From contig BEHE01000028.1 in assembly GCA_002898395.1 (NCBI GenBank), forward strand, positions 1 through 12,334: a stretch of 12,334 bases of DNA. Reading direction: 5' to 3'. Position 1 is the stretch's first letter. Each line of letters starts with the position of its first letter. Below the pieces are notes generated by a model that did not search any database, was not told where the DNA came from, and worked only from the letters and a program-made list of their open reading frames with translations. The DNA comes from Candidatus Calditenuaceae archaeon HR02 (lineage in GTDB: Archaea > Thermoproteota > Nitrososphaeria_A > Caldarchaeales > Calditenuaceae). A program made the position numbers and the translations under genes. Of this stretch, positions 448 through 12,334 are shown piece by piece.

Positions 448-467
448 GTGTTTAGGAGGCGGCGCTC

Positions 468-1427: not shown

Positions 1428-1447
1428 GCCCAGAAACTAAGCATTCG

Positions 1448-1460
1448 TTAAATTAAAAAA
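1448..1460 (-). promoter_or_regulatory. TATA-like box for the dehydratase gene
   Basis: The minus strand reads CTTTTTAATTTAA 21-33 nt upstream of the ATG at 1427. The spacing fits a leaderless or short-leader archaeal transcript. Confidence 0.35.
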
Positions 1461-1762
1461 GATTCCCAGCAACCGTCGACGCCTAGCAGCTTAGAAGAGC
1501 TTCCGCGAATCGAGGGTCATTGCGTGTTCTCATAGGTCTGGAAAACCTTTAAACTTAAGGATTGAGAGCAGTGTTTAGGGCAATGAAGTGTCTGGCCAGG
1601 CTGAATCGATGATTGGGATCTTGAGCGCGGAGCCCCTTTAAATAGCTGAAAAAATCCTGAAATCCCCGCTATTACAGTCTTTTTCCCGCACTCTAACAAC
1701 ATTAATACAAAACCCTAATATGCATGGTGCTGGCCTCATGGGTATGGGTGTCTGCCAAGTAG

Positions 1763-2050
1763 ATGTCGGAGACCCGTGAGAGTGTCCTGATTACTAGGCT
1801 TGTCTTAGACGTCCTGAAACCCCACCAGCCCGATATTGTCGAGTTTAGTAAGAGGTTGGCAGGGGTCAAGGGGGTGAGGAGGGTGGACTCCTCTGTCCTC
1901 GAGATGGATGCGGAAACAGAGACAGTCAAGCTAATCATCGATGGCAATGACTTGGATGTAGAGGTGATAGGAGAGACGATTAAGGCTCTGGGCGGAGCCA
2001 TACATAGTGTCGACGCAACCGTCGTTGAGAAGATAGAGCGCAAGAGGTAG
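1763..2050 (+). CDS. DUF211 (COG1888) family small protein
   Basis: 95 aa. RLVLDVLKPHQPDIVEFSKRLAGVKGVRRV...ETIKALGGAIHSVD is the characteristic DUF211 signature. A TAG stop lies immediately upstream of the ATG. Confidence 0.8.
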   Translation: MSETRESVLITRLVLDVLKPHQPDIVEFSKRLAGVKGVRRVDSSVLEMDAETETVKLIIDGNDLDVEVIGETIKALGGAIHSVDATVVEKIERKR

Positions 2051-2059
2051 TGGCCCAGC

Positions 2060-2656
2060 ATGGTTTTCGGCTGGCTACGCAATCGTTTGAAGACGGTATT
2101 CGAGGTTACAGAGACAAGGGGTGTTGCTCGACGCTATTTTTCACTTCAGGTCTTCGACGGGGCCATGGTGGGCGTCGGGCTGGTCTTCGGACTCCACCTC
2201 TCAGGCCCCCATCCGTTCAGAGTTGTCGCGCAGACAGTCGTCGCCGTGTCTATTGCCATGGTTATTTCGGGGTGGACAGGAGCTCTAATATCGGAGAAGG
2301 CTGAGCAGGAGGCTAGGATCAGGAGACTTGAGCTCGCGACCCTCACAGCCCTGAGGAACACCCTCCACACGAGGGTGGGTTCTATAGCTGTGCTACTAGT
2401 CGCGCTTGTGAACGCCCTTTCACCGGTAGTAGCGCTGCTGACGGTTTCACTACCATACATGATAACGACCCTCTTGGGAGGCGAGACAGTATATGGGTTG
2501 ATATCCTCCCTCGCAGTCACCGCAGCCCTACTCCTTACAGCCGGCGCGGTAGTCGGTCGGGCCGCTGGGATAAATGTGCTTAAAACCTCAGGCCAGATGA
2601 TAGGTGCTGGCCTAGCCGCCGCAGGGCTTATAATTCTCTTCGAGACCCTCTTCTGA
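2060..2656 (+). CDS. VIT1/CCC1-like (COG1814, TIGR00267-type) integral membrane protein
   Basis: 198 aa. It has an N-terminal cytosolic segment (TRGVARRYFSLQVFDGAMVGVGLVFG) followed by several hydrophobic helices. It starts 9 nt after the DUF211 stop, so it is probably co-transcribed. Confidence 0.55.
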   Translation: MVFGWLRNRLKTVFEVTETRGVARRYFSLQVFDGAMVGVGLVFGLHLSGPHPFRVVAQTVVAVSIAMVISGWTGALISEKAEQEARIRRLELATLTALRNTLHTRVGSIAVLLVALVNALSPVVALLTVSLPYMITTLLGGETVYGLISSLAVTAALLLTAGAVVGRAAGINVLKTSGQMIGAGLAAAGLIILFETLF

Positions 2657-2670
2657 GATCCAGGCACGGA

Positions 2671-3756
2671 TTAGAAGTCGGTGAGCCTACTCTGACCCCT
2701 CTCGCTGCTAAGGTCGTAGACCCTGACCCCGATCCTTCGAAGTTCCTCTTCTAGCCCGCTTAGAAGGGCCCTTAAGAGCTGGCGGGAGACGTTCTCCAAC
2801 TCGGTTATCTCTTGCGTTTGGTGTGGGAGGGCCATGCTCTTGGTAACCGGCTTCATCCCCCTTGTTACACCTATTAGGGATACGCCTTTGAACCCATAGC
2901 CTAGTTCGATGACCCTTCGGTGTAGTTCGCGAATGGCCCCCGCCAGCTGCCCCCATATCTCAGCCTCATCCCGAGTCTGGCGCTTCAGCGTAATCATTCT
3001 ACTCATCTGTTTCGCCTCACCCCTTGGGGTCACCTGCTCAAAATATTCGCCGCGGCTGGCGAGATAGATGAACCGCCCAACCCTGAATCCGAAAACTTCC
3101 ATGAGCTTGTCGGAGGGGGTGTTTACAAGGTCGCCGATCGTTTTTATCCCCATATCCCGGAGCCTTTTGGCAGTTTTCACCCCTACATAGGGTATATCCT
3201 CTACGGGTTTGGGCTTTAGATACTGGTCCTCTGTTCCGGGTCTTATAACGAGTAGACCGTCGGGCTTAGAGTCGTCTGCCGCCATCTTTGCTAATAGCTT
3301 GTTCTTCGCAATCCCTATACTGCAGGTCAGACCAGTCCTCGCCCTAATCTCCTTTTTCAAAGACTCCATTAGACGGGCAGCATTCTCGAAGGAGCCTGCA
3401 GCCACCTCGAGCAGGCTCAGAAACGCCTCATCAATGCTAGCCACCTCAATTACGTCTGCGAACCTGCCGGCTATCTCGAAGACCTGATGTGAAAGCGCGG
3501 AGTAATAGGGCATATCGACTGGGAGGAACACTGCGTCCACGCCGCGAAGAAGCTCCTTTGCCCGCCAAATTGGAATCCCAGATCTCACCCCGTACCGCCT
3601 AGCCACATAGTTGCTGGTGGCTACCACTCCGGAATCCGGTGTCCTGCCAGAATAGACGCAGACCACTATGGGCTTATCCCGGATGGCCGGGTTGCGTAGC
3701 TCTTCAGCCTGCGCGTAGAAATAGTCTATGTCTAGGCAGGCTACGGGACCGTTCAC
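2671..3756 (-). CDS. dinB: Y-family DNA polymerase IV (Dpo4/Dbh type)
   Basis: 361 aa, collinear with Sulfolobus Dpo4: LDIDYFYAQAEELRNP..KPIVVCVYSGRT.DSGVVATSNYVARRYGV, SIDEAFL, SIGIAKNKLLAKMAADDSKP, RRIGVRV. The start codon is GTG (plus strand cac at 3754-3756). Confidence 0.95.
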   Translation of the reverse strand: MNGPVACLDIDYFYAQAEELRNPAIRDKPIVVCVYSGRTPDSGVVATSNYVARRYGVRSGIPIWRAKELLRGVDAVFLPVDMPYYSALSHQVFEIAGRFADVIEVASIDEAFLSLLEVAAGSFENAARLMESLKKEIRARTGLTCSIGIAKNKLLAKMAADDSKPDGLLVIRPGTEDQYLKPKPVEDIPYVGVKTAKRLRDMGIKTIGDLVNTPSDKLMEVFGFRVGRFIYLASRGEYFEQVTPRGEAKQMSRMITLKRQTRDEAEIWGQLAGAIRELHRRVIELGYGFKGVSLIGVTRGMKPVTKSMALPHQTQEITELENVSRQLLRALLSGLEEELRRIGVRVYDLSSERGQSRLTDF

Positions 3757-3777
3757 TGCGTCGTCCCTTTAGAGCGT

Positions 3778-3786
3778 ATTATAAAA
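3778..3786 (-). promoter_or_regulatory. TATA-like box for dinB
   Basis: The minus strand reads TTTTATAAT 22-30 nt upstream of the GTG start, which implies a leaderless or near-leaderless mRNA. Confidence 0.4.
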
Positions 3787-3848
3787 CTTTTAACCCTTAT
3801 CCGACAACCAATCTCTAAATTGTTATTTCACCACCTAAAGCCCAAGAA

Positions 3849-3862
3849 TTTAATATATATTT
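3849..3862 (+). promoter_or_regulatory. TATA-like box for mevalonate kinase
   Basis: TTTAATATATATTT lies 35-48 nt upstream of the ATG at 3897. Confidence 0.4.
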
Positions 3863-3896
3863 AGCGGACACATAATAGTTGGTTAGAGAGACTAGT

Positions 3897-4868
3897 ATGG
3901 AATCTGTGACATACTCGGCACCCGCCAAGGTCATATTCTGCGGTGAACATTATGTCGTTTACGGGGGCAGGGCTATTGCGTGTGCTATTCCTAAGAGGGC
4001 CTACGCCACAGTAGCCCGCAGGAACGACTCGCTATTGTCAATTGAGTCGCAGGACGCAAAGATATCGGCAGTATGGAAGGGGGACAAGCTGGTTAAGTGC
4101 TCGGATCAGAGTGCGCCTACGAGGCTGCGCCCACTCAAAATAATGATTGACCGCATATCTGAAATGTATGGTGTCAAGGGATTTTCCGTCGCCATCAAGT
4201 CCCAAATTCCCAGAGGGATGGGGCTCGGCTCCTCGGCCTCGGTATCACTCGCAGTGGCGTCTGCATGCCTCGCCGCGAGTGGTCACGAGGCTAATCAGAC
4301 CGAGGTTTTAGAGATTGCCTCAATTTCTGAGTCTGAAATACATTATAGGGCATCAGGTGTAGATCTTGCTGCGTCTTTGACTGGAGGGTTTATATCCTAT
4401 GTCAGGGGCGAGAGGCCGCGACCCATACCCGTCGGCGAGAAATTCAATATTATACTTGTAAGCACTAAGAAGGGAAGGAGGACTGGTAGCATTGTTAAGC
4501 AGGTCTCAACCCTTAGAGAACAGTTCATCAACGTCTTCGACAGGCTTAGACTAGTGAATGATGAGGTCGCTGCCGAGATGGAAGTTGCGCTGAGGAATCT
4601 CAGGTTTGAGAGACTCGGCTCCCTCTTTACGATTCAGCATAACCTGCTTAAGACCATTGGAGTCTCGAATAAGACTTTAGATGAAGCCGTTGAGCACGCT
4701 CTTAAGGGAGGTGCCTTAGGCGCAAAGCTCACTGGAGCTGGTGGAGGGGGCTGCGTAATCGCGATAGCACCTCAAAATAGGGTTAAAGAGGTCGCTAAAA
4801 TTATCTCCACCAAATTCCCCGCCGAGGTCTTGACGGTACCCCATGAAGGGCTTAGGCGAGAGAAGTAA
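3897..4868 (+). CDS. mvk: mevalonate kinase (GHMP kinase family)
   Basis: SAPAKVIFCGEHYVVYG is the N-terminal mevalonate kinase motif. PRGMGLGSSASVSLAVA is GHMP motif II. KLTGAGGGGCVIA is motif III. I prefer ATG 3897 over the TTG at 3879 used by the ORF track, because alignment with archaeal MVK N-termini begins there. Confidence 0.9.
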   Translation: MESVTYSAPAKVIFCGEHYVVYGGRAIACAIPKRAYATVARRNDSLLSIESQDAKISAVWKGDKLVKCSDQSAPTRLRPLKIMIDRISEMYGVKGFSVAIKSQIPRGMGLGSSASVSLAVASACLAASGHEANQTEVLEIASISESEIHYRASGVDLAASLTGGFISYVRGERPRPIPVGEKFNIILVSTKKGRRTGSIVKQVSTLREQFINVFDRLRLVNDEVAAEMEVALRNLRFERLGSLFTIQHNLLKTIGVSNKTLDEAVEHALKGGALGAKLTGAGGGGCVIAIAPQNRVKEVAKIISTKFPAEVLTVPHEGLRREK

Positions 4869-4871
4869 CCT

Positions 4872-6068
4872 TTAACTAGATTTCCGCTTAGCTAGCCTTG
4901 TGGCACTTATAACAGTTTCCAGCCCCCAAATCTTGCTGAAGCCCTCGCCGGCCTTTTGCTGGAAGACACTTCCCTTAGCATATGTCGCTATTTCATGTGA
5001 GTAGAGAGGATTCTCAGCCATTCTGCCGATAATCCTGGCTGAACCCTTGTAGAGCTCAAGCTTCACACGCCCCGTTACATTCTCTTGGGTACTTTCTATG
5101 AAGGCGTGGAGCGCGTCCATGAGCGGGTCAAGCCAGAAGCCCTGATAGACCATCTGGCTCCATATCCTCTCGACCAGGGCCTTGAAGGATAGTGTCTTGC
5201 CGTTAAGCGTGATTTTCTCCAAGTCTCTATGGGCCTTGATGAGTATGAGGGCTGCGGGAGCCTCGTAGACCTCCCTCGACTTAATTCCCACCGCCCTATC
5301 CTCTATGTGGTCTATGATTCCGAAGCCAGTTCTCCCACCGAGTATGTTGAGCTCCTGTATCAGCTCGCCTAGCGGCATGTCCCGCCCATTTAGTCCTACA
5401 GGAACCCCCCTCTCAAAGTCTATCTCCACCATCTCCACCTTGTCGGGTGCATGTTGAGGGTTGACCACGTACTTGAAGGCCTCGTAGGGTGGCTTGACCC
5501 ATGGGTCCTCCAGCTCAGCGGCCTCAATGGAGCGGCTCCAGAGATTCTCGTCTATGCTGAATCTACTCTGTCTGAAGTCCAGCTTCAGACCCCTACTCTT
5601 TGCAAACTCTATCTCCTCGTCCCTGCTCAGGTCCCACTCCCTGATCGGCGCGATGATCCTTAACTGGGGAGCCAAGACCGATATAGTTATATCGAATCTC
5701 AGCTGGTCGTTTCCTTTCCCAGTGCATCCATGTGCAACAGCCTCGCACCCTTCCCTCAAAGCAACCTCGACTACCTTTGCCGCAATAAGCGGCCTCGCAA
5801 GGGCTGTCCCTAGTGGATACTCATCTTCATAGAGCCCATTCGCCTTGATGCACGGTTTGATATAGTGTTCTACGAACTCTTTCTTCGCGTCGATGAAAAA
5901 ATGCTTTGACGCGCCTGCAGAGAGTGCCCTATCCTCAATCTCGTCGAAATCCTCGCTCTGGCCGACGTCGACCGTCACAGTTATAACCTCCGCGCCATAC
6001 TTCTCCTTCAACCAGGGGATCGAGACAGTTGTGTCAAGCCCCCCACTATAAGCTAGGGCGACCTTCAT
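4872..6068 (-). CDS. argG: argininosuccinate synthase
   Basis: 398 aa. MKVALAYSGGLDTTV is the N-type ATP-pyrophosphatase P-loop. GCTGKGNDQLRF and the length and order of motifs are typical of ArgG. Confidence 0.95.
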   Translation of the reverse strand: MKVALAYSGGLDTTVSIPWLKEKYGAEVITVTVDVGQSEDFDEIEDRALSAGASKHFFIDAKKEFVEHYIKPCIKANGLYEDEYPLGTALARPLIAAKVVEVALREGCEAVAHGCTGKGNDQLRFDITISVLAPQLRIIAPIREWDLSRDEEIEFAKSRGLKLDFRQSRFSIDENLWSRSIEAAELEDPWVKPPYEAFKYVVNPQHAPDKVEMVEIDFERGVPVGLNGRDMPLGELIQELNILGGRTGFGIIDHIEDRAVGIKSREVYEAPAALILIKAHRDLEKITLNGKTLSFKALVERIWSQMVYQGFWLDPLMDALHAFIESTQENVTGRVKLELYKGSARIIGRMAENPLYSHEIATYAKGSVFQQKAGEGFSKIWGLETVISATRLAKRKSS

Positions 6069-6091
6069 GCTTCAACCAGCACACTACGATG

Positions 6092-6100
6092 TTTTTTAAG
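6092..6100 (-). promoter_or_regulatory. TATA-like box for argG
   Basis: The minus strand reads CTTAAAAAA 24-32 nt upstream of the ATG at 6068. Confidence 0.4.
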
Positions 6101-6130
6101 ATTATTGCCTCGGGGGTTGAGGGAAACAAC

Positions 6131-6140
6131 AAATATATAC
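6131..6140 (+). promoter_or_regulatory. TATA-like box for the SCP2 gene
   Basis: AAATATATAC is centred ~27 nt upstream of the GTG at 6163. This supports that (leaderless) start. Confidence 0.4.
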
Positions 6141-6162
6141 CCAGTTTGATCTGGAATACCAC

Positions 6163-6504
6163 GTGGTTAACAAGTCTCTATCAGCACTTCGCGAACTAGT
6201 CGCACTGGCATCGGAGAAGCCTCTGATAAAGATGCGCACGGCAAGGATGGTAAAGACATTCCAGTTCAAGCCATCAGACTCCCCACCTTACTACCTCCAA
6301 ATCGTCAACGGGGTTCTAAAGGTAGGAGAGGGCGAGGCAACTAATCCAGTAGCCACAATAATAGCCACAGACGAAGACCTAGCAGGAATCATAAAGGGAA
6401 ATGTCGACCCGGTGCAGCTCTTCTTTGCCGGCCGCGTCAAGGTACAGGGTAGCCTATTCGACGCCCAAGAACTTGCCACAATCCTGAGAGACGCGGCACG
6501 ATAA
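6163..6504 (+). CDS. SCP2 (sterol carrier protein 2-like) domain protein
   Basis: 113 aa. KTFQFKPSDSPPYYLQIVNGVLKVGEG....ATIIATDEDLAGIIKGNVDPVQLFFAGRVKVQGSLFDAQELATIL follows the SCP2 domain pattern. GTG start; an alternative ATG is at 6232. Confidence 0.75.
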   Translation: MVNKSLSALRELVALASEKPLIKMRTARMVKTFQFKPSDSPPYYLQIVNGVLKVGEGEATNPVATIIATDEDLAGIIKGNVDPVQLFFAGRVKVQGSLFDAQELATILRDAAR

Positions 6505-6571
6505 GCCAGCCACCAAACCTTCGAAAAGATATTTAACATAAACTCGTATTGAGCAAAATTTTTGCAAAAGA

Positions 6572-6645
6572 TGCCGGCGGTGGGACTCGAACCCACGGCA
6601 ACGGGATTATGAGTCCCGCGCTCTACCAGCCTGAGCTACGCCGGC
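6572..6645 (-). tRNA. tRNA with CAT anticodon (elongator Met, or Ile2 if C34 is modified)
   Basis: The reverse complement folds as GCCGGCG TA GCTC AGGCTGGTA GAGC G CGGGA CTCATAA TCCCG TTGCC GTGGG TTCGAGT CCCAC CGCCGGC A. It is 74 nt, all stems are perfect, no CCA is encoded and there is no intron. Confidence 0.9.
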
Positions 6646-6850
6646 ACTCTGGCCAGCCAAACCCAACCCGCCGGCAATACAAGCAAGGAATTAGCCTCTA
6701 TTAATCCTTGATGAGCCGCGATATGCCCAAACAGGATTTGGGGGGCGTATTGGATTTAAGGGAGGACACCTGGCCTAGGCCTTCCCATGGATGAGTAACA
6801 AGCAGACTAGTTCAATCCTATTCCCAAAAAATACTTTATATCTATGCACA

Positions 6851-7645
6851 TTATTTTACTGGTTTCCCACATTTGCCGCAGAACTTGTCGCCGGGTTGGA
6901 GCGGGTTTCCACAATAGCCGCAGAAAAGCTCTCCCCCTGTAGCTGCTGTAGACGGGGCTCCGGGGGGTGGTGGGGATGGAGGCCGGAGAGAGGGTGCTGA
7001 CTCATATATGTTTGCGGCTGACCTGCCTATGAAGACCATGAAGATAGGCGAGATGATGAGGGCTATGAGCCATCCAACGAACGGTATAGCAGAAAGCCCA
7101 GCAAGCACAAGCGTTATCACGAATATTATGATTATCCAGAGAATGTAGTTCCCCCAGCCTGCTGTTCTGATTTTTGACAATATTTGGTCAAAATCAAATG
7201 CGGCCCCCATCCTTCCCGTCTTGACCATGTGTACAATCGCCATCAACGCTATTATCATTATTAAGAACACTAGAACCAACCCTATCACTACTAGCACACT
7301 ACCAACAATTCCGAGCCCGCTGAAAGGAAATAGCACGCCAGCAACAATCGCCGAAGCAGCCCCCACAGAGATCAAGGCGACAGGAACTATCATGTAGACT
7401 AATAAGACGACGAAAATTTTTGCACCATCTATCCACAGGTCCCCATATTTCTCGAGAGGTGGTGGAGCTTCTACCCTCGGTGACTCTCTGACAACCCTTG
7501 CGAAGTACCCAACCACAATGAAGTTGACTATCGGTATTATGTTCAGAACAACTAGGATGGCAAGCCTCCCGATGTCTTTGAATAGCTTGACAGTGTAGTT
7601 GTAGGCATCCCCTAAATTTTCATCGAGCCTCATACCATTACCCAC
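6851..7645 (-). CDS. DUF4013-like polytopic membrane protein with Pro-rich linker and C-terminal zinc ribbon
   Basis: GYFARVVRES....PPPLEKYGDLWIDGAKIFVVLLVYMI resembles the DUF4013 core, and there are about 6 hydrophobic helices. The C-terminus has PSLRPPSPPPPGAPS followed by CGYCGNPLQPGDKFCGKCGKPV. The ORF-track start is GTG 7645. ATG 7633 (MRLDENL...) is an equally plausible start. Confidence 0.7.
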   Translation of the reverse strand: MGNGMRLDENLGDAYNYTVKLFKDIGRLAILVVLNIIPIVNFIVVGYFARVVRESPRVEAPPPLEKYGDLWIDGAKIFVVLLVYMIVPVALISVGAASAIVAGVLFPFSGLGIVGSVLVVIGLVLVFLIMIIALMAIVHMVKTGRMGAAFDFDQILSKIRTAGWGNYILWIIIIFVITLVLAGLSAIPFVGWLIALIISPIFMVFIGRSAANIYESAPSLRPPSPPPPGAPSTAATGGELFCGYCGNPLQPGDKFCGKCGKPVK

Positions 7646-7970
7646 CTAGCTTCGATCCGCAACTAGTGCAGTATATCATGTCTGGCGCATTCACTTTTCC
7701 ACAGTTGGGACACACCTTCTCCGACGACGGGCTAGTCATGGGTGGAGTCTTTACTATAGCAGACGACTTGACGAGAACCACGTCCCCGAAAGCAATTATT
7801 TGAGACGAAGGTACTGCCTCTTCACCCCCCTCGCCCGGCTTATCATATATCAAAACAATCTTCCCCTCAGCATCATACCCAATATCCTTAACTTTTCCAA
7901 GCCTGATAGCGGAATCCGATATAATGTCCTTACCTACGATCTCATCCCTTCTGAAGTATCTTTTACCCAA
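7638..7970 (-). CDS. PRC-barrel domain protein with C-terminal zinc ribbon
   Basis: RRDEIVGKDIISDSAIRLGKVKDIGYDAEGKIVLIY...IAFGDVVLV follows the PRC-barrel pattern. The C-terminus has CPNCGKVNAPDMIYCTSCGSKL. It uses a TTG start preceded by GGTGGGTGA (SD-like) 4 nt upstream. Its stop overlaps or abuts the start of the downstream DUF4013 gene. Confidence 0.75.
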   Translation of the reverse strand: MGKRYFRRDEIVGKDIISDSAIRLGKVKDIGYDAEGKIVLIYDKPGEGGEEAVPSSQIIAFGDVVLVKSSAIVKTPPMTSPSSEKVCPNCGKVNAPDMIYCTSCGSKLGG

Positions 7971-8054
7971 AAATCACCCACCAGTACTTGGCAAATCTAG
8001 GTATTTATTCGACACATATAAGTTTTAAAAGTTTGACATGTTTAAAAATCAATT

Positions 8055-8483
8055 TGACTTTTCATAGATTCCAGTTGGGGGATATCTCGCTATGCTGGCG
8101 CGGCCGAAGCCTGATGGTGTAGGTGTCCGGCGTCTCTTTGGCTTTCCTGACAACCCTCACGGTGGAGTGGCTCTCATACAGGCGGATGTGGATAGAGTCT
8201 AAGAGAGATGCATACATGACGTATGTCTATCCCAAGACTATAAGAAGTTCTTAAAGAAGATCGGAACATCGATACTCAGGAAGCAGCATCTCATAGAATT
8301 ATCAACAAAAGCAATATGGTATTACATGGATGAGATAGGAGAGAGGAAGGACTGGTGGAAGATTTGTGAGATGCTACGGATAGCTATCGGCAGGAGAATG
8401 AAGCGCAAAGGAAAACCCAACCCCTCCCCCTTTTCTTCCTCCTTGTTACTTGCCTACCACAGTATTTGATGTATTCATAAAGA
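8055..8483 (+). repeat. Repeat copy A: diverged ~0.43 kb segment homologous to 11977-12334 (inverted); decayed coding remnant abutting the 3' end of tRNA-Thr
   Basis: Collinear blocks were matched by hand. 8074-8090 matches rc 12301-12315. 8329-8363 matches rc 12092-12126 (30/35 identical). 8394-8434 matches rc ~12020-12063. Only a broken reading frame is present (open 8203-8466, stop codon 8467-8469, no start before 8326). Confidence 0.5.
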
Positions 8484-8557
8484 AGCCTCGGGCGGGATTT
8501 GAACCCGCGACCCCCGGCTTACCAAGCCGGTGCTCCACCCGGCTGAGCTACCGAGGC
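8484..8557 (-). tRNA. tRNA-Thr(GGT)
   Basis: The reverse complement folds as GCCTCGG TA GCTC AGCCGGGTG GAGC A CCGGC TTGGTAA GCCGG GGGTC GCGGG TTCAAAT CCCGC CCGAGGC T. It is 74 nt with perfect stems, U73, no CCA and no intron. Confidence 0.9.
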
Positions 8558-8789
8558 GCACACCTATCGTTTGAAGACCGTGAATTTAGCTATTAAGGAT
8601 TTTATAGCGAAATTTTATGGATAAGAATGTTCGAGGAAGCATGGCTGGTGGGAGAGTATATGGCACTGGCATTTTGCCATGGTCGAAAGACTGGTGCTTT
8701 ACTAAGTTATTATCAGCGGTTTGCGAATCTGTTCAGGAGGGGTGGACACACTTATGAGCGGCTTGGGTTTAACTGAGTTAGTTGGAGCT

Positions 8790-8830
8790 GCGGCCGTGGT
8801 CTAGCCTGGACTAGGACGTGGGCTTTCCGA
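8790..8830 (+). tRNA. 5' piece (positions 1-38) of an interrupted/split tRNA-Gly(UCC) gene
   Basis: GCGGCCG TG GTCT AGCCTGGACTA GGAC G TGGGC TTTCCGA, after which the tRNA-like sequence ends in A/T-rich DNA. The partner piece is at 11943-11976. Confidence 0.8.
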
Positions 8831-8879
8831 GCGAATATAGATACAATCAAGTATAAGTTACTCGTAATACCTGTTGCAA

Positions 8880-8884
8880 TTTTT
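8880..8884 (+). terminator. T5 tract ~50 nt downstream of the tRNA-Gly 5' piece
   Basis: TTTTT could terminate a separately transcribed 5' half. The region is A/T-rich, so this may be chance. Confidence 0.25.
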
Positions 8885-8943
8885 AGAGAAATATAATAAG
8901 TTAAGTAATGAGAAAGTAAGAAAGTAATATCATTTGAAAACTT

Positions 8944-8953
8944 AAAATAAAAA
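8944..8953 (-). terminator. oligo-T terminator after the LAGLIDADG gene
   Basis: The minus strand reads CCCTTTTTATTTT starting ~10 nt after the TAA stop at 8963-8965. Confidence 0.4.
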
Positions 8954-8962
8954 GGGAGTGGG

Positions 8963-9814
8963 TTAGGTCGGGTTGTTTGTTATGGCTTGTAACAATTGCT
9001 GTAATCGTATCCTCTTCTTGTCTACTGTAAATCCAATTATCGCAGCGTATCTGCGAATATCTTCCTTGCGACAAATATGCAGTTCATATAATGCTTTCTT
9101 CGAAGTAATGTAACAATTTTCAGGCTCATAATAATGGCTTTTAAATCCGCCGTAGTAGATCCTTGAATATATGCCAAGCTGTTGTAAGAGATGTTTTATA
9201 TAGCGAAGTAGTTGAAGGTTTGTATTTGATATTTTTATTCTTTTCGTGCTAACTATCGGACCGCCTTCTGCGTCAGCGAATCCACGTATGAATGATTTTA
9301 CACATTCTTGGCAATGTTCTACGTATGGTATTATTGCTGAAATATCGTTGTGGTCTTTTACTCTCATACTAAGAAGGTAGAGTTCTCTACTGTATGCTCT
9401 TGCTAACCATGTTTCTTCAGACCTTATGTAATATGCTCTGTATGGTTTACTTCTCCCTAGAGCTACAGCAGCGGACCGAGCAAATTCTTCAGCAAATTCC
9501 TTATCCTTCACAGGTAAAAGGACCATGTACTTTTTCGCCTTTACTTCATAGTGTTTATATCCATCCCCTAAATATGCGCCAAGCGTGTATCCTGTCTCTG
9601 GACAATTTCTGAGTTTATTCAGTCTTTGATCAGATTTTGGTCTCCCTTTGCCATCATTCTTTGGTGTATGTATATGCCTTAGCCAGTAACTCAGCGTGGA
9701 CTTCGGGACATCTAAGCTATATTGTTGCTGGAGTATATTCCTTATTTCGTAATACGACGCCCCCTCTTTCCTTAATCTAAGTACTTCGTCATATATTTCT
9801 TCGTATTTTTTCAT
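8963..9814 (-). CDS. free-standing double-motif LAGLIDADG homing endonuclease with N-terminal helix-turn-helix domain
   Basis: Motif 1 is LGAYLGDGY. Motif 2 is IRGFADAEGG, ~99 aa later, giving D...E catalytic spacing as in single-chain enzymes such as I-DmoI. The N-terminal ~75 aa are HTH-like (GASYYEIRNILQQQYSLDVPKSTLSYWLRH). I place the start at ATG 9814 (MKKYEEIY) because GGGGAGGAGGA (SD-like) immediately precedes it. The ORF track extends to 9835. Confidence 0.85.
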   Translation of the reverse strand: MKKYEEIYDEVLRLRKEGASYYEIRNILQQQYSLDVPKSTLSYWLRHIHTPKNDGKGRPKSDQRLNKLRNCPETGYTLGAYLGDGYKHYEVKAKKYMVLLPVKDKEFAEEFARSAAVALGRSKPYRAYYIRSEETWLARAYSRELYLLSMRVKDHNDISAIIPYVEHCQECVKSFIRGFADAEGGPIVSTKRIKISNTNLQLLRYIKHLLQQLGIYSRIYYGGFKSHYYEPENCYITSKKALYELHICRKEDIRRYAAIIGFTVDKKRIRLQQLLQAITNNPT

Positions 9815-9929
9815 TCCTCCTCCCCTACAGTCCACTGTTACATTGAGTCTTTAGGAGTATAGCAGCTAAGAGGACCATGCATTTATTAGTCTTATTATAT
9901 TTATTATCCGAGATTTCACATATCTCTGT

Positions 9930-10862
9930 CTAGGCAGGGCCTTCATACGCCCCCATGGTAACGTGTTGGGGGAAGCGGCCGCTAGGCTGCGCGGCTCTGC
10001 CATGTAGAACTGTCATCAAAGTCGGAAACGCTAACTGTATTCGAAAGCACTCAGTAAAATTATCTGAAAACCAACTGGCCTCAGTGGAGTCGTTGATAGC
10101 AGTCTTTCCATCACTTGTTCCGAGTTCTCCTCCCGCGTCTTCTCCGGGACACCCTCTAGGCCTGCTCCGTTCACAGCGTGCTCCAAGCATATCTTCTAGC
10201 TCTTCACTATACGCTCCGGGAGCAGGATAGAGGTATCCGTTCACCAAAGACACGGAAGGATATCGGCCCTCATGTAGGAGATGCGTATGAGGCGCTGGCT
10301 TCGGGCCAGCGCAGCCATTATGGGAGCCTTTCACCCCAAGCTCCGGGCACCCTAAGGCTTACTAACCCTTCACCACCAACACACTCATACGCAGCGCCCC
10401 CATCGGGCCGGCCTCCCAGAGGCTCAGGCTAAAACTCCCAACGGCGAGAGCCGCCCAAGCGGAAGCCCAAGCCCAGAAGGCCCGACACAGAACCCGACCA
10501 CCCTCCGCCCGGACTCAAATATATTATCCGGGCGCCGCCAGCAAAGGTGGGAAATATATGATTCGCTCATCTTAATCAGTGCTGTCAACAGTGACCATAT
10601 CGGCCCTCCTGGAAGATGTGAGGGCCCTCAACATCTCCTCCCAGACGCCCAGCTCCTGCCAAAGCCTAAGCCTCCTCCAGGCCGTTTTGTAAGAACCGTA
10701 CTCAGCGGGCATGTCCATCCAGCGGCACCCAGTCGTCAGGACATAGAGTATGCCGTTCAGCACGCGCCTGTCATCAGCCCTAGGCCTACCACCCCTAGGC
10801 TTAGGAGGGAGAAGCGGCCTAATCAACTCCCACTCAAAGTCGCTAAGCTCCCTGAACTCCAA
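9930..10862 (-). pseudogene. decayed IS4/IS5-superfamily transposase (intact N-terminal DUF4096-like ORF 10572-10862; DDE part broken by stops and frameshifts)
   Basis: LSDFEWELIRPLLPPKPRGGRPRADDRRVLNGILYVLTTGCRWMDMPAEYGSYKTAWRRLRLWQELGVWE is the typical N-terminus of IS5/IS1031-like transposases. The ORF stops right at the first DDE aspartate region (VDSTD*). The downstream frames keep only faint transposase-like strings (e.g. GAYSEELEDML). G+C is much higher than in the flanking island DNA. Confidence 0.6.
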
Positions 10863-10887
10863 GCCGAAAACATATGACCTGAGAGAG

Positions 10888-10900
10888 CTTAAATAATTTT
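10888..10900 (+). promoter_or_regulatory. TATA-like box for the 10931 ORF
   Basis: CTTAAATAATTTT lies 31-43 nt upstream of the ATG at 10931. Confidence 0.35.
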
Positions 10901-10930
10901 GAGACGAGTTCTAAGATAAGAACTATCTGG

Positions 10931-11488
10931 ATGAATAGACCGCTCGCTTCCACTATTCTGTTGCTTATAGCAGGTGGCTTTTACATAATTGGTGGGTTCG
11001 TTGCAGCTAGCATAGTTGGGTGGCTTGGTGCTTTAACAGCCAGTCTAGGTGCTTCTGGAGTTGCACAGGAGGCGCAGGAGAGTGTTGTAATTGTCATATC
11101 TACTGGTTTTGTATCTGGAGGAGGTATTATTGTAGGTGCGCTCCTCGTTTGGACAGGAACTAGACGAAAGGTATTGATTGGTGGTATAATTGCACTAATC
11201 TTCAGCCTTATTGGTATAATAAACACTATTGGAGGTCTGATTGTAGGCTTAGTGTTAACTATAGTTGGAGCGGTCCTAGCATTCACATGGAAAGCTCATA
11301 ATGCTCATACAAGCTTAAGAACGAGCAACTATCATACATCCTCTAACTACATCAATACGCAGATAACAAAGAAGCTTAGAAACGTGCCAGATAGGTGCCC
11401 TAGATGTGGAGGATACAATATCGTAGGATACACGGGTATTTATGACTGCTTCGACTGCGGCTATAAGTTTGCTGAAGAACATGTCTAA
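10931..11488 (+). CDS. hypothetical Gly-rich 4-TM membrane protein with C-terminal zinc ribbon
   Basis: 185 aa with four hydrophobic Gly/Ile-rich helices, a polar linker, then CPRCGGYNIVGYTGIYDCFDCGYKF. I recognise no family. Confidence 0.55.
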   Translation: MNRPLASTILLLIAGGFYIIGGFVAASIVGWLGALTASLGASGVAQEAQESVVIVISTGFVSGGGIIVGALLVWTGTRRKVLIGGIIALIFSLIGIINTIGGLIVGLVLTIVGAVLAFTWKAHNAHTSLRTSNYHTSSNYINTQITKKLRNVPDRCPRCGGYNIVGYTGIYDCFDCGYKFAEEHV

Positions 11489-11796
11489 CGCTCTTGCCTC
11501 TCTAGTTCAGCAGCTAATAATGCTGCCTTCCATCGTGGTCGATTTTGCTAACGGATAATGTTTTCAGAAATGATGACTGAGTATCAATGAGAACCTTAAA
11601 AAAGATTATCTGAGATTCTTAGATATGGTCTTTGACAGTTAATGTACAATAAGGGCCTGTATTATTCTATTATTTCTATTCCCTCATCTTGGGCCTCATA
11701 GGGCCTGCTAGTTTAGGTAGTCCCATGAATATGCCAATAAACTATATGTAGTAGCATAAACTCTTCTAACTATGGACGCCTAACATTTATTATTAT

Positions 11797-11801
11797 AAAA
11801 A
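11797..11801 (-). terminator. oligo-T tract directly after the intact tRNA-Gly
   Basis: The minus strand reads TTTTTATAATAATAA immediately after the discriminator base. Confidence 0.4.
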
Positions 11802-11877
11802 TGCGGCCGGCGGGATTTGAACCCGCGATCGCTGGGTTGGAAACCCAGCGTCCTAGTCCAGGCTAGACGACGGCCGC
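11802..11877 (-). tRNA. tRNA-Gly(TCC), intact
   Basis: The reverse complement folds as GCGGCCG TC GTCT AGCCTGGACTA GGAC G CTGGG TTTCCAA CCCAG CGATC GCGGG TTCAAAT CCCGC CGGCCGC A. It is 76 nt with perfect stems and no intron. Confidence 0.92.
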
Positions 11878-11901
11878 TAGTTTAATTATTCTTTTATGGG
11901 A

Positions 11902-11910
11902 GTTATTTAG
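11902..11910 (-). promoter_or_regulatory. TATA-like box for the intact tRNA-Gly
   Basis: The minus strand reads CTAAATAAC at -33 to -25 relative to the tRNA 5' end. Confidence 0.4.
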
Positions 11911-11942
11911 GTTTCGCTCTATGATTATATGTAGTTATAGTG

Positions 11943-11976
11943 CCCAATACCCGGGTTCAAATCCCGGCGGCCGCAA
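11943..11976 (+). tRNA. 3' piece (positions 39-73) of the interrupted/split tRNA-Gly(UCC) gene
   Basis: GCCCA ATAC CCGGG TTCAAAT CCCGG CGGCCGC A. The anticodon-stem strand is complementary 5/5 to 8819-8823. The acceptor strand is complementary 7/7 to 8790-8796. It is followed by T-rich sequence (ATTTTAATAATTATGGCTTTTT). Confidence 0.8.
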
Positions 11977-12334
11977 TTTTAATAATTATGGCTTTTTCAA
12001 TGTGGTAAGTATGAGGGGATAAAGGGGGAGGGGGCGGGTTATCGTCTGCGCTTCAACATTCTCTTACCTACCCCATTTGTTGTTTTGGCTCATCTTCCAC
12101 CAATACTTCCCTTCTCCTATCTCGTCCACATAACGCCGTATCATCTTGTTGAGGGTTCGATACCCCCGCCGCTAGTAGTGGTGCATATAGTTAGGTGCCT
12201 TAAATACTCCCCAAAACACCAACAATACGTATACACAAAACAGGGCCAGATACAACACAAAGCAAAGAAAAAAACTCGTGAAGATAAATAAGCTATCCAG
12301 AGATATACCCCCGACGAGGGCTTAAAAGCCTCTA
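11977..12334 (-). repeat. Repeat copy B: inverted, diverged homologue of 8055-8483, abutting the 3' end of the tRNA-Gly 3' piece; runs off the window
   Basis: It shows the same collinear blocks as copy A. The minus-strand frame reads ...RRGYRTLNKMIRRYVDEIGEGKYWWKMSQ..., versus ...LSTKAIWYYMDEIGERKDWWKICEML... in copy A. Confidence 0.5.

What the first reader, a model, noticed from the sequence alone, without database searches (positions are those of the whole stretch)
11802..11976. The insertion carries its own intact tRNA-Gly(UCC), inverted and with re-coded stems, 65 bp from the orphaned 3' piece
An intact tRNA-Gly with the same UCC anticodon sits inside the insertion, next to its right edge. 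It has a TATA-like box and an oligo-T terminator. Its first 29 nt match the broken gene at 28/29 positions, differing only at position 9. Around the break point it differs: anticodon stem CTGGG/CCCAG versus TGGGC/GCCCA, loop TTTCCAA versus TTTCCGA, variable loop CGATC versus ATAC, and T stem GCGGG versus CCGGG. This is the pattern expected if a mobile cassette disrupts the resident isoacceptor and supplies a functionally equivalent copy whose sequence at the target site is not recognisable. That would make the cassette hard to lose (addiction) and immune to re-cleavage. I am not aware of this arrangement being described for archaeal tRNA genes. The nearest analogy I know is free-standing homing endonucleases in phage tRNA clusters (T4 SegB).
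Basis: partly seen in the sequence, partly recalled or inferred. Interest (0 to 1): 0.8.

Follow-up and report, generated by a model that had tools for sequence, protein, structure and literature searches.

The report
Split tRNA-Gly gene with foreign replacement
In a hot-spring archaeon, foreign DNA carrying a homing-endonuclease gene and a complete substitute tRNA-Gly(UCC) gene has cut the resident tRNA-Gly(UCC) gene in two, and the same layout recurs at other tRNA genes, which points to an undescribed way in which selfish DNA breaks and replaces archaeal tRNA genes.

Summary
An intact tRNA-Gly(UCC), Gly', lies at 11802-11877(-). It sits 64 nt from an orphan 3' piece (11942-11975,+) and 3 kb from an orphan 5' piece (8790-8832,+).

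Rejoined, the two pieces are 75/75 identical to the only tRNA-Gly(UCC) of nine related Caldarchaeales. Gly' is 67/76 identical to that gene and was found nowhere else. So the broken gene is the resident and Gly' is foreign.

No bulge-helix-bulge (BHB) motif can rejoin the pieces, so the resident gene is dead.

The insertion holds four things:
- an I-DmoI-like LAGLIDADG gene;
- a decayed IS;
- a membrane-protein gene;
- Gly'.

The endonuclease and membrane genes share a foreign GC3 of about 0.35, against 0.50-0.67 for host genes.

The endonuclease belongs to a family of at least 468 members. In 30 of 68 metagenome loci a member sits tail-to-tail against a tRNA gene. Five unrelated loci keep orphan tRNA pieces beside an intact but different copy. 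One of them, L181 (tRNA-Ala), repeats this window's layout.

The cassette reading is therefore largely supported. Endonuclease activity, immunity of Gly', dependence on Gly', and physical unity of endonuclease gene and Gly' are not shown. Sugahara et al. (2012) described a related case at tRNA-Thr and attributed it to an integrase.

The parts
8790..8832 (+). Orphan 5' piece of the resident tRNA-Gly(UCC): acceptor, D arm, anticodon stem 5' strand, loop TTTCCGA, plus GC. Its own upstream flank (8745-8789) is retained.
   Evidence: 100% identical over 44 nt to the tRNA-Gly(UCC) of L015, L020 and L028. 84% over 83-88 nt including the flank to L008, L090 and L032..
8833..8962 (-). AT-rich (25% GC) tail downstream of the endonuclease gene. 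It starts with the family's C-rich motif and forms the left end of the insertion.
   Evidence: Weak nhmmer match of the family's downstream motif at 8949-8972 (E 0.21).
8963..9814 (-). Intact LAGLIDADG homing-endonuclease gene (283 aa, HRbin02_01883) with an N-terminal helical DNA-binding-like extension.
   Evidence: Pfam LAGLIDADG_3, E 4.9e-17. Identical to P0001. AF2 model pLDDT 92, best PDB match I-DmoI at E 1e-8. Catalytic D84 and E183 invariant in 71 homologues. GC3 0.344.
9930..10862 (-). Decayed IS5-type insertion sequence: DUF4096 transposase N-terminal ORF at 10572-10862, and GC-rich DNA at 9930-10571 without an intact ORF.
   Evidence: Pfam DUF4096, E 1.7e-29. No Pfam hit for the rest. 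Faint resemblance to a DDE C-terminus by eye. GC3 0.70, unlike its neighbours.
10931..11488 (+). Cargo gene for a 185-aa membrane protein with a C-terminal zinc ribbon.
   Evidence: GC3 0.349, the same as the endonuclease gene. Its only close homologue (63%) stands alone on a 41%-GC metagenome contig, L120.
11802..11877 (-). Gly': an intact, foreign tRNA-Gly(UCC) gene. An oligo-T follows at 11797-11801 and an AT-rich upstream region lies at 11878-11941.
   Evidence: 67/76 to the resident type and at best 69/76 to any of 116 loci. Its 23-mer is absent from genome representatives, viral contigs and JGI metagenome contigs.
11942..11975 (+). Orphan 3' piece of the resident tRNA-Gly(UCC): anticodon stem 3' strand, variable loop, T arm, acceptor and discriminator.
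   Evidence: 97-100% identical over 34-37 nt to six relatives (100% in four of them). The rejoined gene is 75/75 identical to nine relatives.
11999..12141 (-). Remnant of an older endonuclease-gene tail lying against the 3' end of the resident tRNA-Gly.
   Evidence: nhmmer family motif, E 0.004. 72% identical over 123 nt to the remnant beside tRNA-Thr. L020 has an endonuclease-gene fragment in the same place.
8209..8483 (+). Remnant of an endonuclease gene C-terminus and tail lying against the 3' end of tRNA-Thr(GGU) (8484-8557,-).
   Evidence: tblastn with the L020 homologue, E 4e-8. nhmmer motif at 8389-8456, E 8.5e-5.

Best explanation
The resident, probably single-copy tRNA-Gly(UCC) gene of this Calditenuaceae archaeon was broken at the 3' edge of its anticodon loop (tRNA positions 38-40). 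About 2.1 kb of AT-rich foreign DNA was captured in the break, and an IS later added about 1 kb. The captured DNA carries a LAGLIDADG homing-endonuclease gene from a family that lives tail-to-tail against tRNA genes in thermophilic archaea. It also carries a complete tRNA-Gly(UCC) gene of foreign sequence with its own promoter-like and terminator sequences.

The most likely course of events is this. An endonuclease of this family cut the resident gene. The break was repaired by end joining or by one-sided copying of donor DNA that held the endonuclease gene and neighbouring genes. Only products that brought a working tRNA-Gly(UCC) could survive, because GGA codons need it. The insertion splits the presumed target, and Gly' differs from the target at the break, so the new allele should escape further cutting.

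Shown:
- The resident and foreign assignments.
- The absence of a splicing motif.
- The foreign composition of the insertion.
- The link between the endonuclease family and tRNA genes.
- The recurrence of orphan pieces beside substitute tRNAs.

Inferred:
- Endonuclease activity and cut site.
- Immunity of Gly'.
- Dependence of the cell on Gly'.
- A single insertion event.
For: 1. Resident versus foreign.
- The rejoined pieces are 75/75 identical to the tRNA-Gly(UCC) of nine Caldarchaeales genomes. Gly' is 67/76 identical to them.
- The flank of the 5' piece is homologous to the relatives' flanks.
- Relative L008, a 1.55-Mb contig, has one copy only.

2. Dead gene. No BHB geometry regenerates the tRNA at any of the three possible junction registers.

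3. Foreign composition. GC3 is 0.344 for the endonuclease gene and 0.349 for the membrane-protein gene, against 0.50-0.67 for six host genes. The Gly' flanks are 25-36% GC. The IS gene has GC3 0.70 and so is a separate arrival.

4. Endonuclease.
- Pfam LAGLIDADG_3 hit.
- AF2 model with pLDDT 92 matching I-DmoI at E 1e-8.
- Invariant catalytic Asp and Glu.

5. Family behaviour.
- At least 468 homologue clusters.
- 30 of 68 metagenome loci have a convergent tRNA within 500 nt of the gene's end, against about 0.7 expected from the background density in the same loci. No locus has a tRNA on that strand within 500 nt upstream (0 of 74).
- 18 different anticodons are involved.
- A conserved tail abuts the tRNA discriminator base.

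6. Recurrence.
- L181: tRNA-Ala 5' piece, endonuclease gene, inverted intact tRNA-Ala with an intron and a different T stem, then a 3' piece. The cassette is 42-49% GC in flanks of 59-63% GC next to a NuoD gene.
- L197 and L032: an orphan 3' piece beyond the endonuclease gene.
- L198, L200 and L202: an orphan tRNA-Pro 5' piece 40 nt upstream of a different intact tRNA-Pro.

7. The locus was visited before. Decayed endonuclease tails lie against both the resident tRNA-Gly and tRNA-Thr, as in relative L020.
Against: - In this window the endonuclease gene and Gly' are 2 kb apart, on the same strand, and separated by an IS and a cargo gene. They are not in the convergent pair seen elsewhere.
- No endonuclease-tail motif is detectable next to Gly'.
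- The closest homologue of this endonuclease is only 37-38% identical, and no donor was found.
- The differences between Gly' and the resident gene fall where tRNA-Gly genes of different orders differ anyway.
- The rest of the HR02 genome could not be searched for further tRNA-Gly(UCC) genes.
- The window is a whole metagenome-assembled contig, and read support for the junctions could not be checked.
- The IS looks decayed, which fits poorly with a very recent event, although 75 nt of unchanged tRNA sequence sets only a loose limit on age.
Confidence: 0.6

Rival explanations
1. Several unrelated events. The foreign DNA with Gly' reached the tRNA-Gly gene by some other route, such as IS activity, illegitimate recombination or an unseen integrase. 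The endonuclease gene is a passenger or a separate later arrival, and the presence of Gly' reflects only survivor selection.
For: - Endonuclease gene and Gly' are not in the canonical convergent pair, and no endonuclease-tail motif lies beside Gly'.
- An IS remnant sits in the middle of the insertion.
- The membrane-protein gene occurs without either partner on L120.
Against: - The endonuclease and membrane-protein genes have the same unusual GC3.
- The family is tied to tRNA genes about 40-fold above background.
- L181 shows endonuclease gene and substitute tRNA together between orphan halves with nothing else present.
Confidence: 0.2
2. Integrase-mediated integration of a plasmid or virus into the tRNA gene (SSV or pNOB8 type), as proposed for the tRNA-Thr locus of Caldiarchaeum subterraneum. 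The tRNA pieces would be attachment-site remnants.
For: - tRNA-Gly 3' parts are known attachment sites. SSV integrase genes match the 3' 40 nt of Gly' at 82-88%.
- The Sugahara 2012 model (PMC3293823).
Against: - No integrase domain in any ORF of the insertion.
- No direct repeat of a tRNA segment, only a 2-bp GC overlap.
- The intact tRNA is inverted relative to the pieces and differs from the resident over its whole length, including position 9, so it is not a reconstituted hybrid.
Confidence: 0.07
3. The resident gene still works as a giant-intron or split tRNA that is cis- or trans-spliced, and Gly' is just an extra copy.
For: - The pieces are unmutated (75/75), collinear and on the same strand.
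- A 7-bp complement (GAGCGAA at 8829-8835, TTCGCTC at 11916-11922) pairs in the predicted fold of the joined ends.
- Split tRNAs exist in Thermoproteota (PMC3218864).
Against: - No BHB or near-BHB at any junction register that would give the right product.
- The predicted fold is a three-way junction with the 3' junction 20 nt away from the helix.
- Genes on the opposite strand and an oligo-T terminator lie inside the 3.1 kb.
Confidence: 0.05
4. Assembly chimera. The contig joins reads from different strains or organisms at tRNA-like repeats.
For: - The window is a complete 12.3-kb contig of a metagenome bin.
- It ends 359 nt beyond the 3' piece, inside repeated endonuclease-tail sequence.
Against: - The junctions (8832/8833 and 11941/11942) do not lie in any sequence repeated within the contig.
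- The longest exact match between the resident pieces and Gly' is 20 nt and lies elsewhere.
- The same architecture occurs in independently assembled contigs (L181, L197, L198/L200/L202).
Confidence: 0.05

Closest known systems
Mobile-element model of tRNA gene disruption at the tRNA-Thr(GGU) locus of Candidatus Caldiarchaeum subterraneum (Sugahara et al. 2012, PLoS One, PMC3293823)
   Same: - Same archaeal order.
- An orphan tRNA fragment lies beside an intact gene whose corresponding part came in with a 1.87-kb insertion.
- The insertion holds an 813-bp ORF present in seven copies per genome, one of them next to another tRNA-Thr gene.
- The substituted part differs at the break (an extra intron), and the authors suggest this blocks further invasion.
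   Different: - There only positions 1-27 were substituted, in direct orientation. Here a whole gene is supplied, inverted.
- The authors ascribed the event to a pNOB8-type integrase on the basis of dinucleotide composition and a machine-learning function call.
- Here the ORF is a LAGLIDADG endonuclease and no integrase is present.
- Whether their ORF 'b' belongs to this family could not be tested, because the sequences are held only as images.
Phage T4 SegB, a free-standing homing endonuclease in a tRNA gene cluster (Brok-Volchanskaya et al. 2008, PMC2330249)
   Same: - A free-standing endonuclease gene among tRNA genes.
- SegB recognises a tRNA-gene sequence (the T-psi-C motif).
- Its action spreads its own gene together with neighbouring tRNA genes and displaces the recipient's tRNA region.
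   Different: - SegB is a GIY-YIG enzyme of a bacteriophage.
- Its transfer goes by homologous repair between co-infecting phages and leaves no orphan gene halves.
- Here the enzyme is a LAGLIDADG type in a cellular archaeal chromosome, the essential host gene is physically split, and a foreign isoacceptor takes over.
Archaeal intron-encoded LAGLIDADG endonucleases in rRNA BHB introns (I-DmoI, I-PorI, I-Tsp061I)
   Same: - Best structural match of the encoded protein.
- Archaeal, thermophilic, monomeric two-domain enzymes that invade conserved RNA genes.
   Different: - Those genes sit inside introns that the tRNA-splicing endonuclease removes, so the host gene stays functional.
- Here there is no BHB. 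Function is instead rescued by a second gene copy at the DNA level.
- This family also carries an N-terminal helical extension of about 60 aa.
Split and intron-containing archaeal tRNA genes, and the Randau-Soll idea that they protect against mobile elements (discussed in PMC3218864 and PMC4390854)
   Same: - tRNA gene halves separated in the genome.
- Breaks near the anticodon and variable regions.
- Substitute copies in L181, L197 and L198 carry introns or insertions near the break positions.
   Different: The halves here lack the complementary leader and BHB needed for trans-splicing and appear to be dead remnants.

Membership tests
LAGLIDADG homing endonuclease (monomeric, two-domain, I-DmoI-like) | Two LAGLIDADG motifs, each ending in a catalytic acidic residue | tested here: met
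   Motifs LGAYLGDGY and IRGFADAEGG are present. D84 and E183 are invariant in 71 homologues. Pfam LAGLIDADG_3, E 4.9e-17.
LAGLIDADG homing endonuclease (monomeric, two-domain, I-DmoI-like) | alpha-beta-beta-alpha-beta-beta-alpha double-domain fold | tested here: met
   AF2 model with pLDDT 92.2. Foldseek best matches are I-DmoI (E 1.3e-8, TM 0.68-0.71 on the target) and PI-PfuI.
LAGLIDADG homing endonuclease (monomeric, two-domain, I-DmoI-like) | Site-specific cleavage of the allele that lacks the endonuclease gene | not testable with these tools
   Needs purified protein and the intact resident tRNA-Gly(UCC) gene as substrate.
LAGLIDADG homing endonuclease (monomeric, two-domain, I-DmoI-like) | Presence/absence polymorphism of the gene at one site among close relatives | tested here: met
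   L090 and L008 have an uninterrupted tRNA-Gly(UCC) with no endonuclease gene. L020 has a fragment beside it. The window has an intact gene inside it.
Archaeal BHB intron or split tRNA | Bulge-helix-bulge motif at the exon/intervening-sequence junctions that yields the mature tRNA | tested here: not met
   For all three junction registers at most 2 of 4 central-helix pairs form and no flanking helix of two consecutive pairs adjoins either bulge. No BHB in the flanks gives the right product.
Integrase-type integrative element (SSV or pNOB8 type) | Tyrosine-recombinase gene, intact or split at the attachment site | tested here: not met
   No integrase domain in any ORF of 8833-11941 or of the rest of the contig. 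The contig ends at 12334, so an integrase further away is not excluded.
Integrase-type integrative element (SSV or pNOB8 type) | Direct repeat of a tRNA segment at both ends, with a reconstituted tRNA in the same orientation | tested here: not met
   Only GC is shared by the two junctions. The intact tRNA is inverted and is not a hybrid.
Free-standing homing endonuclease with co-transfer of neighbouring tRNA genes (SegB-like behaviour) | Endonuclease gene outside any intron or intein, lying next to tRNA genes | tested here: met
   30 of 68 family loci have a convergent tRNA within 500 nt. In the window the gene lies 130 nt from the tRNA-Gly 5' piece.
Free-standing homing endonuclease with co-transfer of neighbouring tRNA genes (SegB-like behaviour) | Neighbouring tRNA sequence is transferred with the endonuclease gene and displaces the recipient's | tested here: inconclusive
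   Orphan pieces beside intact copies of different sequence in L181, L197, L032, L198/L200/L202 and the window fit this. No donor-recipient pair was observed.
Addiction module (loss of the element is lethal) | The element carries the only functional copy of an essential gene | not testable with these tools
   The rest of the HR02 genome is not in the searchable collections. A relative has one copy. Archaeal tRNA sets are reported as mostly non-redundant (PMC3293823).

The most novel reading that the evidence does not exclude
A large family of free-standing LAGLIDADG endonucleases in thermophilic Thermoproteota (Caldarchaeales among them) specifically attacks tRNA genes. It travels with whole or partial substitute tRNA genes whose sequence or introns at the cut site make them immune. 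If so, this family is a main driver of tRNA gene fragmentation, non-canonical intron gain and isoacceptor replacement in archaea. This window would be the extreme case, in which a complete foreign tRNA has taken over from a split resident gene.
Probability: 0.35. Interest if true: 0.9.

Novelty: new variant of a known kind. Interest (0 to 1): 0.75.

Why it matters
How archaeal tRNA genes came to be interrupted, split and scattered has been debated for two decades. The leading idea, protection against mobile elements that target tRNA genes, has lacked an identified aggressor other than integrases.

This work names a candidate: an abundant and probably active endonuclease family that sits physically against tRNA genes. 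Several loci appear to be caught in the act, with orphan halves next to a different working copy.

The idea becomes directly testable. One can express the enzyme, cut the resident and substitute genes, and compare introns and stem changes with the cut sites.

It would also be an unusual persistence strategy for selfish DNA: destroy an essential single-copy RNA gene and supply the only replacement. A further consequence is horizontal replacement of tRNA genes, which matters for using tRNAs as phylogenetic or integration-site markers.

Tried and rejected
- **BHB intron or split tRNA.** Rejected: no motif at any junction register, and the fold of the joined ends is a three-way junction.
- **Gly' is the native, syntenic gene.** This looked possible because relatives carry tRNA-Gly on the same strand as Gly' just after the PRC-barrel gene. 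Rejected: their sequence and 5' flank match the broken gene, not Gly'. The tRNA-Thr/tRNA-Gly block is inverted in the window relative to L032.
- **An endonuclease-tail remnant next to Gly'.** It seemed visible by eye. Rejected: the motif profile finds none there.
- **Donor search for Gly'.** Its 23-mer is absent from viral contigs and from JGI metagenome contigs. The 17-mer anticodon arm hits only jumbo-phage tRNA arrays, which are unrelated. None of the 116 genome loci has it.
- **Vehicle search.** tblastn with the endonuclease found no homologue in phage or plasmid records or in viral contigs. A blastn of Gly' against phage records hit only SSV integrase attachment sites.
- **Exact look-up of the source contig with the longest ORFs.** Failed because of the start-codon choice.
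- **Terminal inverted repeats or a target duplication of the insertion.** Nothing convincing beyond the 2-bp GC.
- **Pfam on the GC-rich 9930-10571.** No hit.
- **Whether ORF 'b' of Sugahara et al. is a family member.** The supplement holds images only, and cluster names gave no Caldiarchaeum entry.
Full report
**Source and anatomy**

The window is the whole 12,334-bp contig of the metagenome bin 'Candidatus Calditenuaceae archaeon HR02'. The 283-aa product of 8963-9814(-) is identical to HRbin02_01883, whose longest contig is 12,334 bp.

- Positions 1-8030 carry housekeeping genes: a PLP enzyme, a Y-family polymerase, a GHMP kinase, argininosuccinate synthase, tRNA-Met, a DUF4013 protein and a PRC-barrel protein.
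- Positions 1815-8030 of this part are 84% identical at the DNA level to two other Caldarchaeales genomes, L090 and L008.
- Synteny ends at 8030.
- The rest of the contig, in order:
  - tRNA-Thr(GGU), 8484-8557(-);
  - a 5' piece of tRNA-Gly(UCC), 8790-8832(+);
  - 3.1 kb of other DNA;
  - the intact tRNA-Gly(UCC) of the finding, Gly', 11802-11877(-);
  - a 3' piece of tRNA-Gly(UCC), 11942-11975(+).

**The observation**

- Gly' scores 63.4 bits against the Rfam tRNA model, as good as the relatives' genes at 62 bits. It folds as a cloverleaf.
- It has G1-C72, C2-G71, G3-C70 and A73.
- Five T follow it, and AT-rich sequence precedes it.
- Its first 29 nt match the 5' piece at 28/29.
- The break lies after tRNA position 38, 39 or 40. 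GC is present at both junctions, so the exact point is ambiguous.

**Which copy is resident**

I scanned one genome per species (185,579 species) for the 29-nt 5' part with position 9 left free. This gave 116 loci across Thermoproteota.

- In nine of them, all Caldarchaeales-type and including the two close relatives, the gene is identical at 75 of 75 positions to the window's two pieces joined together. Gly' shares only 67 of 76 positions with that gene.
- About 45 nt upstream of the 5' piece is also homologous to the relatives' upstream flank.
- None of the 116 loci has the anticodon arm of Gly'. Its nearest relatives, at 69/76, are the tRNA-Gly(UCC) genes of Acidilobaceae and Desulfurococcales, which share C9, A37 and the CGATC variable loop.
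- A 23-mer specific to Gly' occurs in no viral contig and no JGI metagenome contig.
- Relative L008, a 1.55-Mb contig, has a single match to the 29-mer.

The broken gene is the native one and the intact one is foreign. The second test, for further copies in this genome, could not be run, because HR02 is not in the searchable collections.

**Is the broken gene still usable?**

For each of the three possible junction registers I checked the bulge-helix-bulge geometry that the archaeal splicing endonuclease needs. That geometry is a 4-bp helix flanked by 3-nt bulges cut after their second base.

- At most two of the four central pairs form, and the flanking helices do not form.
- The joined ends fold into a three-way junction, with a 7-bp helix 20 nt away from the 3' junction.
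- The intervening DNA contains genes on both strands and a terminator.

I conclude that the resident gene is inactive.

**What the insertion is**

From left to right it contains the following.

- A 130-nt, 25%-GC tail.
- A LAGLIDADG gene on the minus strand.
- An IS5-type remnant. Its DUF4096 ORF has E 1.7e-29, and the remaining 640 bp have no recognisable domain.
- A gene for a 185-aa membrane protein with a zinc ribbon.
- 313 nt of 36%-GC DNA.
- Gly'.
- A 64-nt, 25%-GC spacer.

Third-position GC is 0.344 for the endonuclease gene and 0.349 for the membrane-protein gene. It is 0.50-0.67 for six host genes and 0.70 for the IS gene. This argues that the endonuclease gene, the membrane-protein gene and the Gly' region came from one AT-richer source, and that the IS arrived separately.

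The only close homologue of the membrane protein (63%) sits alone on a 41%-GC metagenome contig with neither partner.

**The endonuclease**

- The protein has both LAGLIDADG motifs with their acidic residues. These residues are invariant in an alignment of 71 homologues.
- Its AlphaFold model (pLDDT 92.2) matches I-DmoI (E 1e-8, TM about 0.7 on the target) and PI-PfuI. It has an extra helical N-terminal region of about 60 residues.
- Sequence similarity to I-DmoI is marginal (E 0.03).

**The endonuclease family lives against tRNA genes**

*Close relatives of the source organism*

- L020 has a homologue (32% identity) tail-to-tail with tRNA-Thr, and a C-terminal fragment tail-to-tail with tRNA-Gly.
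- L032 has a remnant beside tRNA-Thr.
- Homologues from the protein database lie beside a tRNA called Leu(CAG) without, and Cys(GCA) with, ARAGORN's intron option (L118, L119).

*Metagenome survey*

- A profile scan of JGI metagenomes found at least 294 relatives, of which 80 loci were fetched.
- Of the 68 loci with at least 200 nt downstream, 30 have a tRNA on the opposite strand within 500 nt of the gene's end, mostly 50-130 nt away. About 0.7 would be expected from the tRNA density elsewhere in the same loci.
- None has a tRNA on that strand upstream, and five have one on the same strand upstream.
- Three more downstream tRNAs appear by similarity search (L161, L189, L203).
- Eighteen anticodons are represented.

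*Conserved tail and older visits*

- Between the stop codon and the tRNA lies a conserved tail in two variants. In one variant the same ...AAAATAATAACTAATAT ends exactly at the discriminator base of Thr, Pro, Arg and Trp genes.
- A profile of the other variant finds decayed copies in the window against the 3' ends of tRNA-Thr (8389-8456, E 8.5e-5) and of the resident tRNA-Gly (11999-12056, E 0.004). It gives a weak match at the stop of the intact gene and none beside Gly'.
- The two decayed copies are 72% identical to each other.
- This locus had therefore been visited by such genes before the present insertion.
- The protein family has at least 468 clusters at E <= 1e-10. Where named, they are annotated only as 'intein-encoded DNA endonuclease-like' or 'LAGLIDADG family homing endonuclease'.

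**Recurrence of the architecture**

*L181, the closest parallel (JGI contig Ga0079992_120400)*

The layout, from left to right, is:
- the first 42 nt (tRNA positions 1-43) of a tRNA-Ala(CGC), 321-362(+);
- a family endonuclease gene (+);
- its conserved tail;
- an intact tRNA-Ala(CGC), 1485-1574(-), 59 bits;
- 109 nt of spacer;
- a tRNA-Ala 3' piece, about 1684-1718(+).

The intact copy shares its first 32 nt with the orphan. It differs in having an 18-nt intron in the anticodon loop, A38 instead of C38, and a T stem CCGGG/CCCGG instead of GGGGG/CCCCC. CCCGGG occurs at both junctions. The cassette is 42-49% GC within flanks of 59-63% GC that include a NuoD gene.

Apart from the orientation of the endonuclease gene and the extra cargo, this is the window's layout at a different tRNA.

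*Other loci with orphan pieces*

- L197 has an orphan tRNA-Pro 3' piece beyond the endonuclease gene. The intact tRNA-Pro(CGG) has a different T stem and an insertion near the variable loop.
- L032 has an orphan tRNA-Thr 3' piece beyond the endonuclease remnant.
- L198, L200 and L202 have an orphan tRNA-Pro 5' piece (to about position 27) 40 nt upstream of an intact tRNA-Pro(GGG) with a different D stem and an intron.

Break points fall near position 27 or in positions 38-45.

**Mechanism**

The best reading has four steps.

- An endonuclease of this family cut the resident gene.
- Donor DNA holding the endonuclease gene and its neighbours was captured by end joining or one-sided repair.
- Only products containing a working tRNA-Gly(UCC) survived.
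- The split target and the divergent Gly' escape further cutting.

Where both sides are homologous, such events would leave a clean endonuclease-tRNA pair. That may be what most loci show.

None of the steps involving enzyme activity, cut site, immunity or dependence is demonstrated. In this window the endonuclease gene and Gly' are not adjacent, so a single event is inferred only from composition and from L181.

The differences between Gly' and the resident gene lie where lineages differ anyway. The 'recoding' is therefore compatible with immunity but is not evidence for it.

**Comparison with what is known**

- **Sugahara et al. 2012 (PMC3293823).** This is the closest published case. In Caldiarchaeum subterraneum, of the same order, a 1.87-kb insertion at tRNA-Thr(GGU) left an orphan 5' fragment and supplied positions 1-27 with an extra intron. 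It carried an 813-bp ORF present seven times in the genome. The authors attributed the event to a pNOB8-type integrase. I suspect that ORF belongs to the present family, but I could not test this.
- **T4 SegB (PMC2330249).** This is the closest mechanistic analogue. It is a free-standing endonuclease that recognises the T-psi-C motif of tRNA genes and spreads itself together with neighbouring tRNA genes. It belongs to a different enzyme family, acts in a phage, and does not split a host gene.
- **Intron-encoded archaeal LAGLIDADG enzymes.** These are the closest structures, but they depend on RNA splicing, which is absent here.
- **Literature search.** I found no paper linking LAGLIDADG genes to the 3' ends of archaeal tRNA genes. 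The library is limited to open-access texts.

**Verdict**

- The thing is best filed as a new variant of free-standing homing-endonuclease behaviour, overlapping a phenomenon glimpsed in 2012.
- The wider pattern found on the way is at least as interesting as the single locus: an abundant endonuclease family attached to tRNA genes, with orphan tRNA pieces beside substitute copies.

Noticed in passing
L125-L204 (80 JGI metagenome loci); also L020, L032, L118, L119: The LAGLIDADG family of the window's endonuclease sits tail-to-tail against tRNA genes of at least 18 anticodons in 30 of 68 loci, roughly 40 times the background. A conserved non-coding tail ends exactly at the tRNA discriminator base. 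This association seems not to have been described.
   Followed up: partly
L184 198-698; L128 3969-4438; L151 172-666; L170 3607-4101; L198 4023-4482 and about 10 more loci: A conserved element of about 500 nt lies 0.5-1 kb upstream of many family endonuclease genes. ARAGORN with its intron option mis-calls it as a tRNA-Thr with a 409-nt intron. It may correspond to the 545-bp repeated region 'a' that Sugahara et al. found coupled to their ORF 'b'.
   Followed up: no
L128 4778-4849; L158 4810-4879; L166 3010-3078: Rfam 'DUF3800-X RNA' matches above the gathering score (40-46 bits) lie 120-220 nt upstream of the endonuclease gene, on the same strand, in three loci.
   Followed up: no
L032 5371-5407(+), with tRNA-Thr 4362-4435(+) and an endonuclease remnant 4546-4992(-): A close relative of the source organism carries an orphan tRNA-Thr 3' piece of a different sequence type (like the intron-containing tRNA-Thr of L107) beyond an endonuclease remnant. 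The tRNA-Thr(GGU) type shared with the window may therefore itself be an earlier replacement.
   Followed up: partly
window 8314-8449 and 12005-12141: Two inverted repeats (50 and 51 nt, 76-80% complementary) flank the whole tRNA-Thr/tRNA-Gly region. They are decayed endonuclease-gene tails. As repeats they could promote inversions, and the tRNA-Thr/tRNA-Gly block is indeed inverted relative to L032.
   Followed up: partly
window 11825-11975: With its intron option, ARAGORN reports a spurious 'tRNA-Asn(att)' with a 79-nt intron. The cause is the inverted repeat formed by the 3' part of Gly' and the orphan 3' piece (11796-11825 versus 11952-11981, 93% complementary). Automatic annotation could mislabel this locus.
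   Followed up: yes
window 12334 (contig end): The contig stops 359 nt beyond the orphan 3' piece, inside the decayed endonuclease sequence. Repeated copies of this family probably break assemblies at tRNA loci, which would hide similar cases in metagenome bins.
   Followed up: no
L178 4563-4640; L188 2250-2327: A degenerate tRNA-Gly-like sequence (79% identical to a tRNA-Gly(UCC), not callable as a tRNA) lies about 690 nt downstream of the endonuclease gene in two related contigs. It is possibly a decayed displaced tRNA.
   Followed up: no
L121 2924-3011; L124 1500-1587 (IMG/VR contigs): The 17-nt anticodon arm of Gly' also occurs in tRNA-Gly(UCC) genes inside large tRNA arrays of jumbo-phage-like contigs. 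They are otherwise unrelated, so this is probably coincidence.
   Followed up: no
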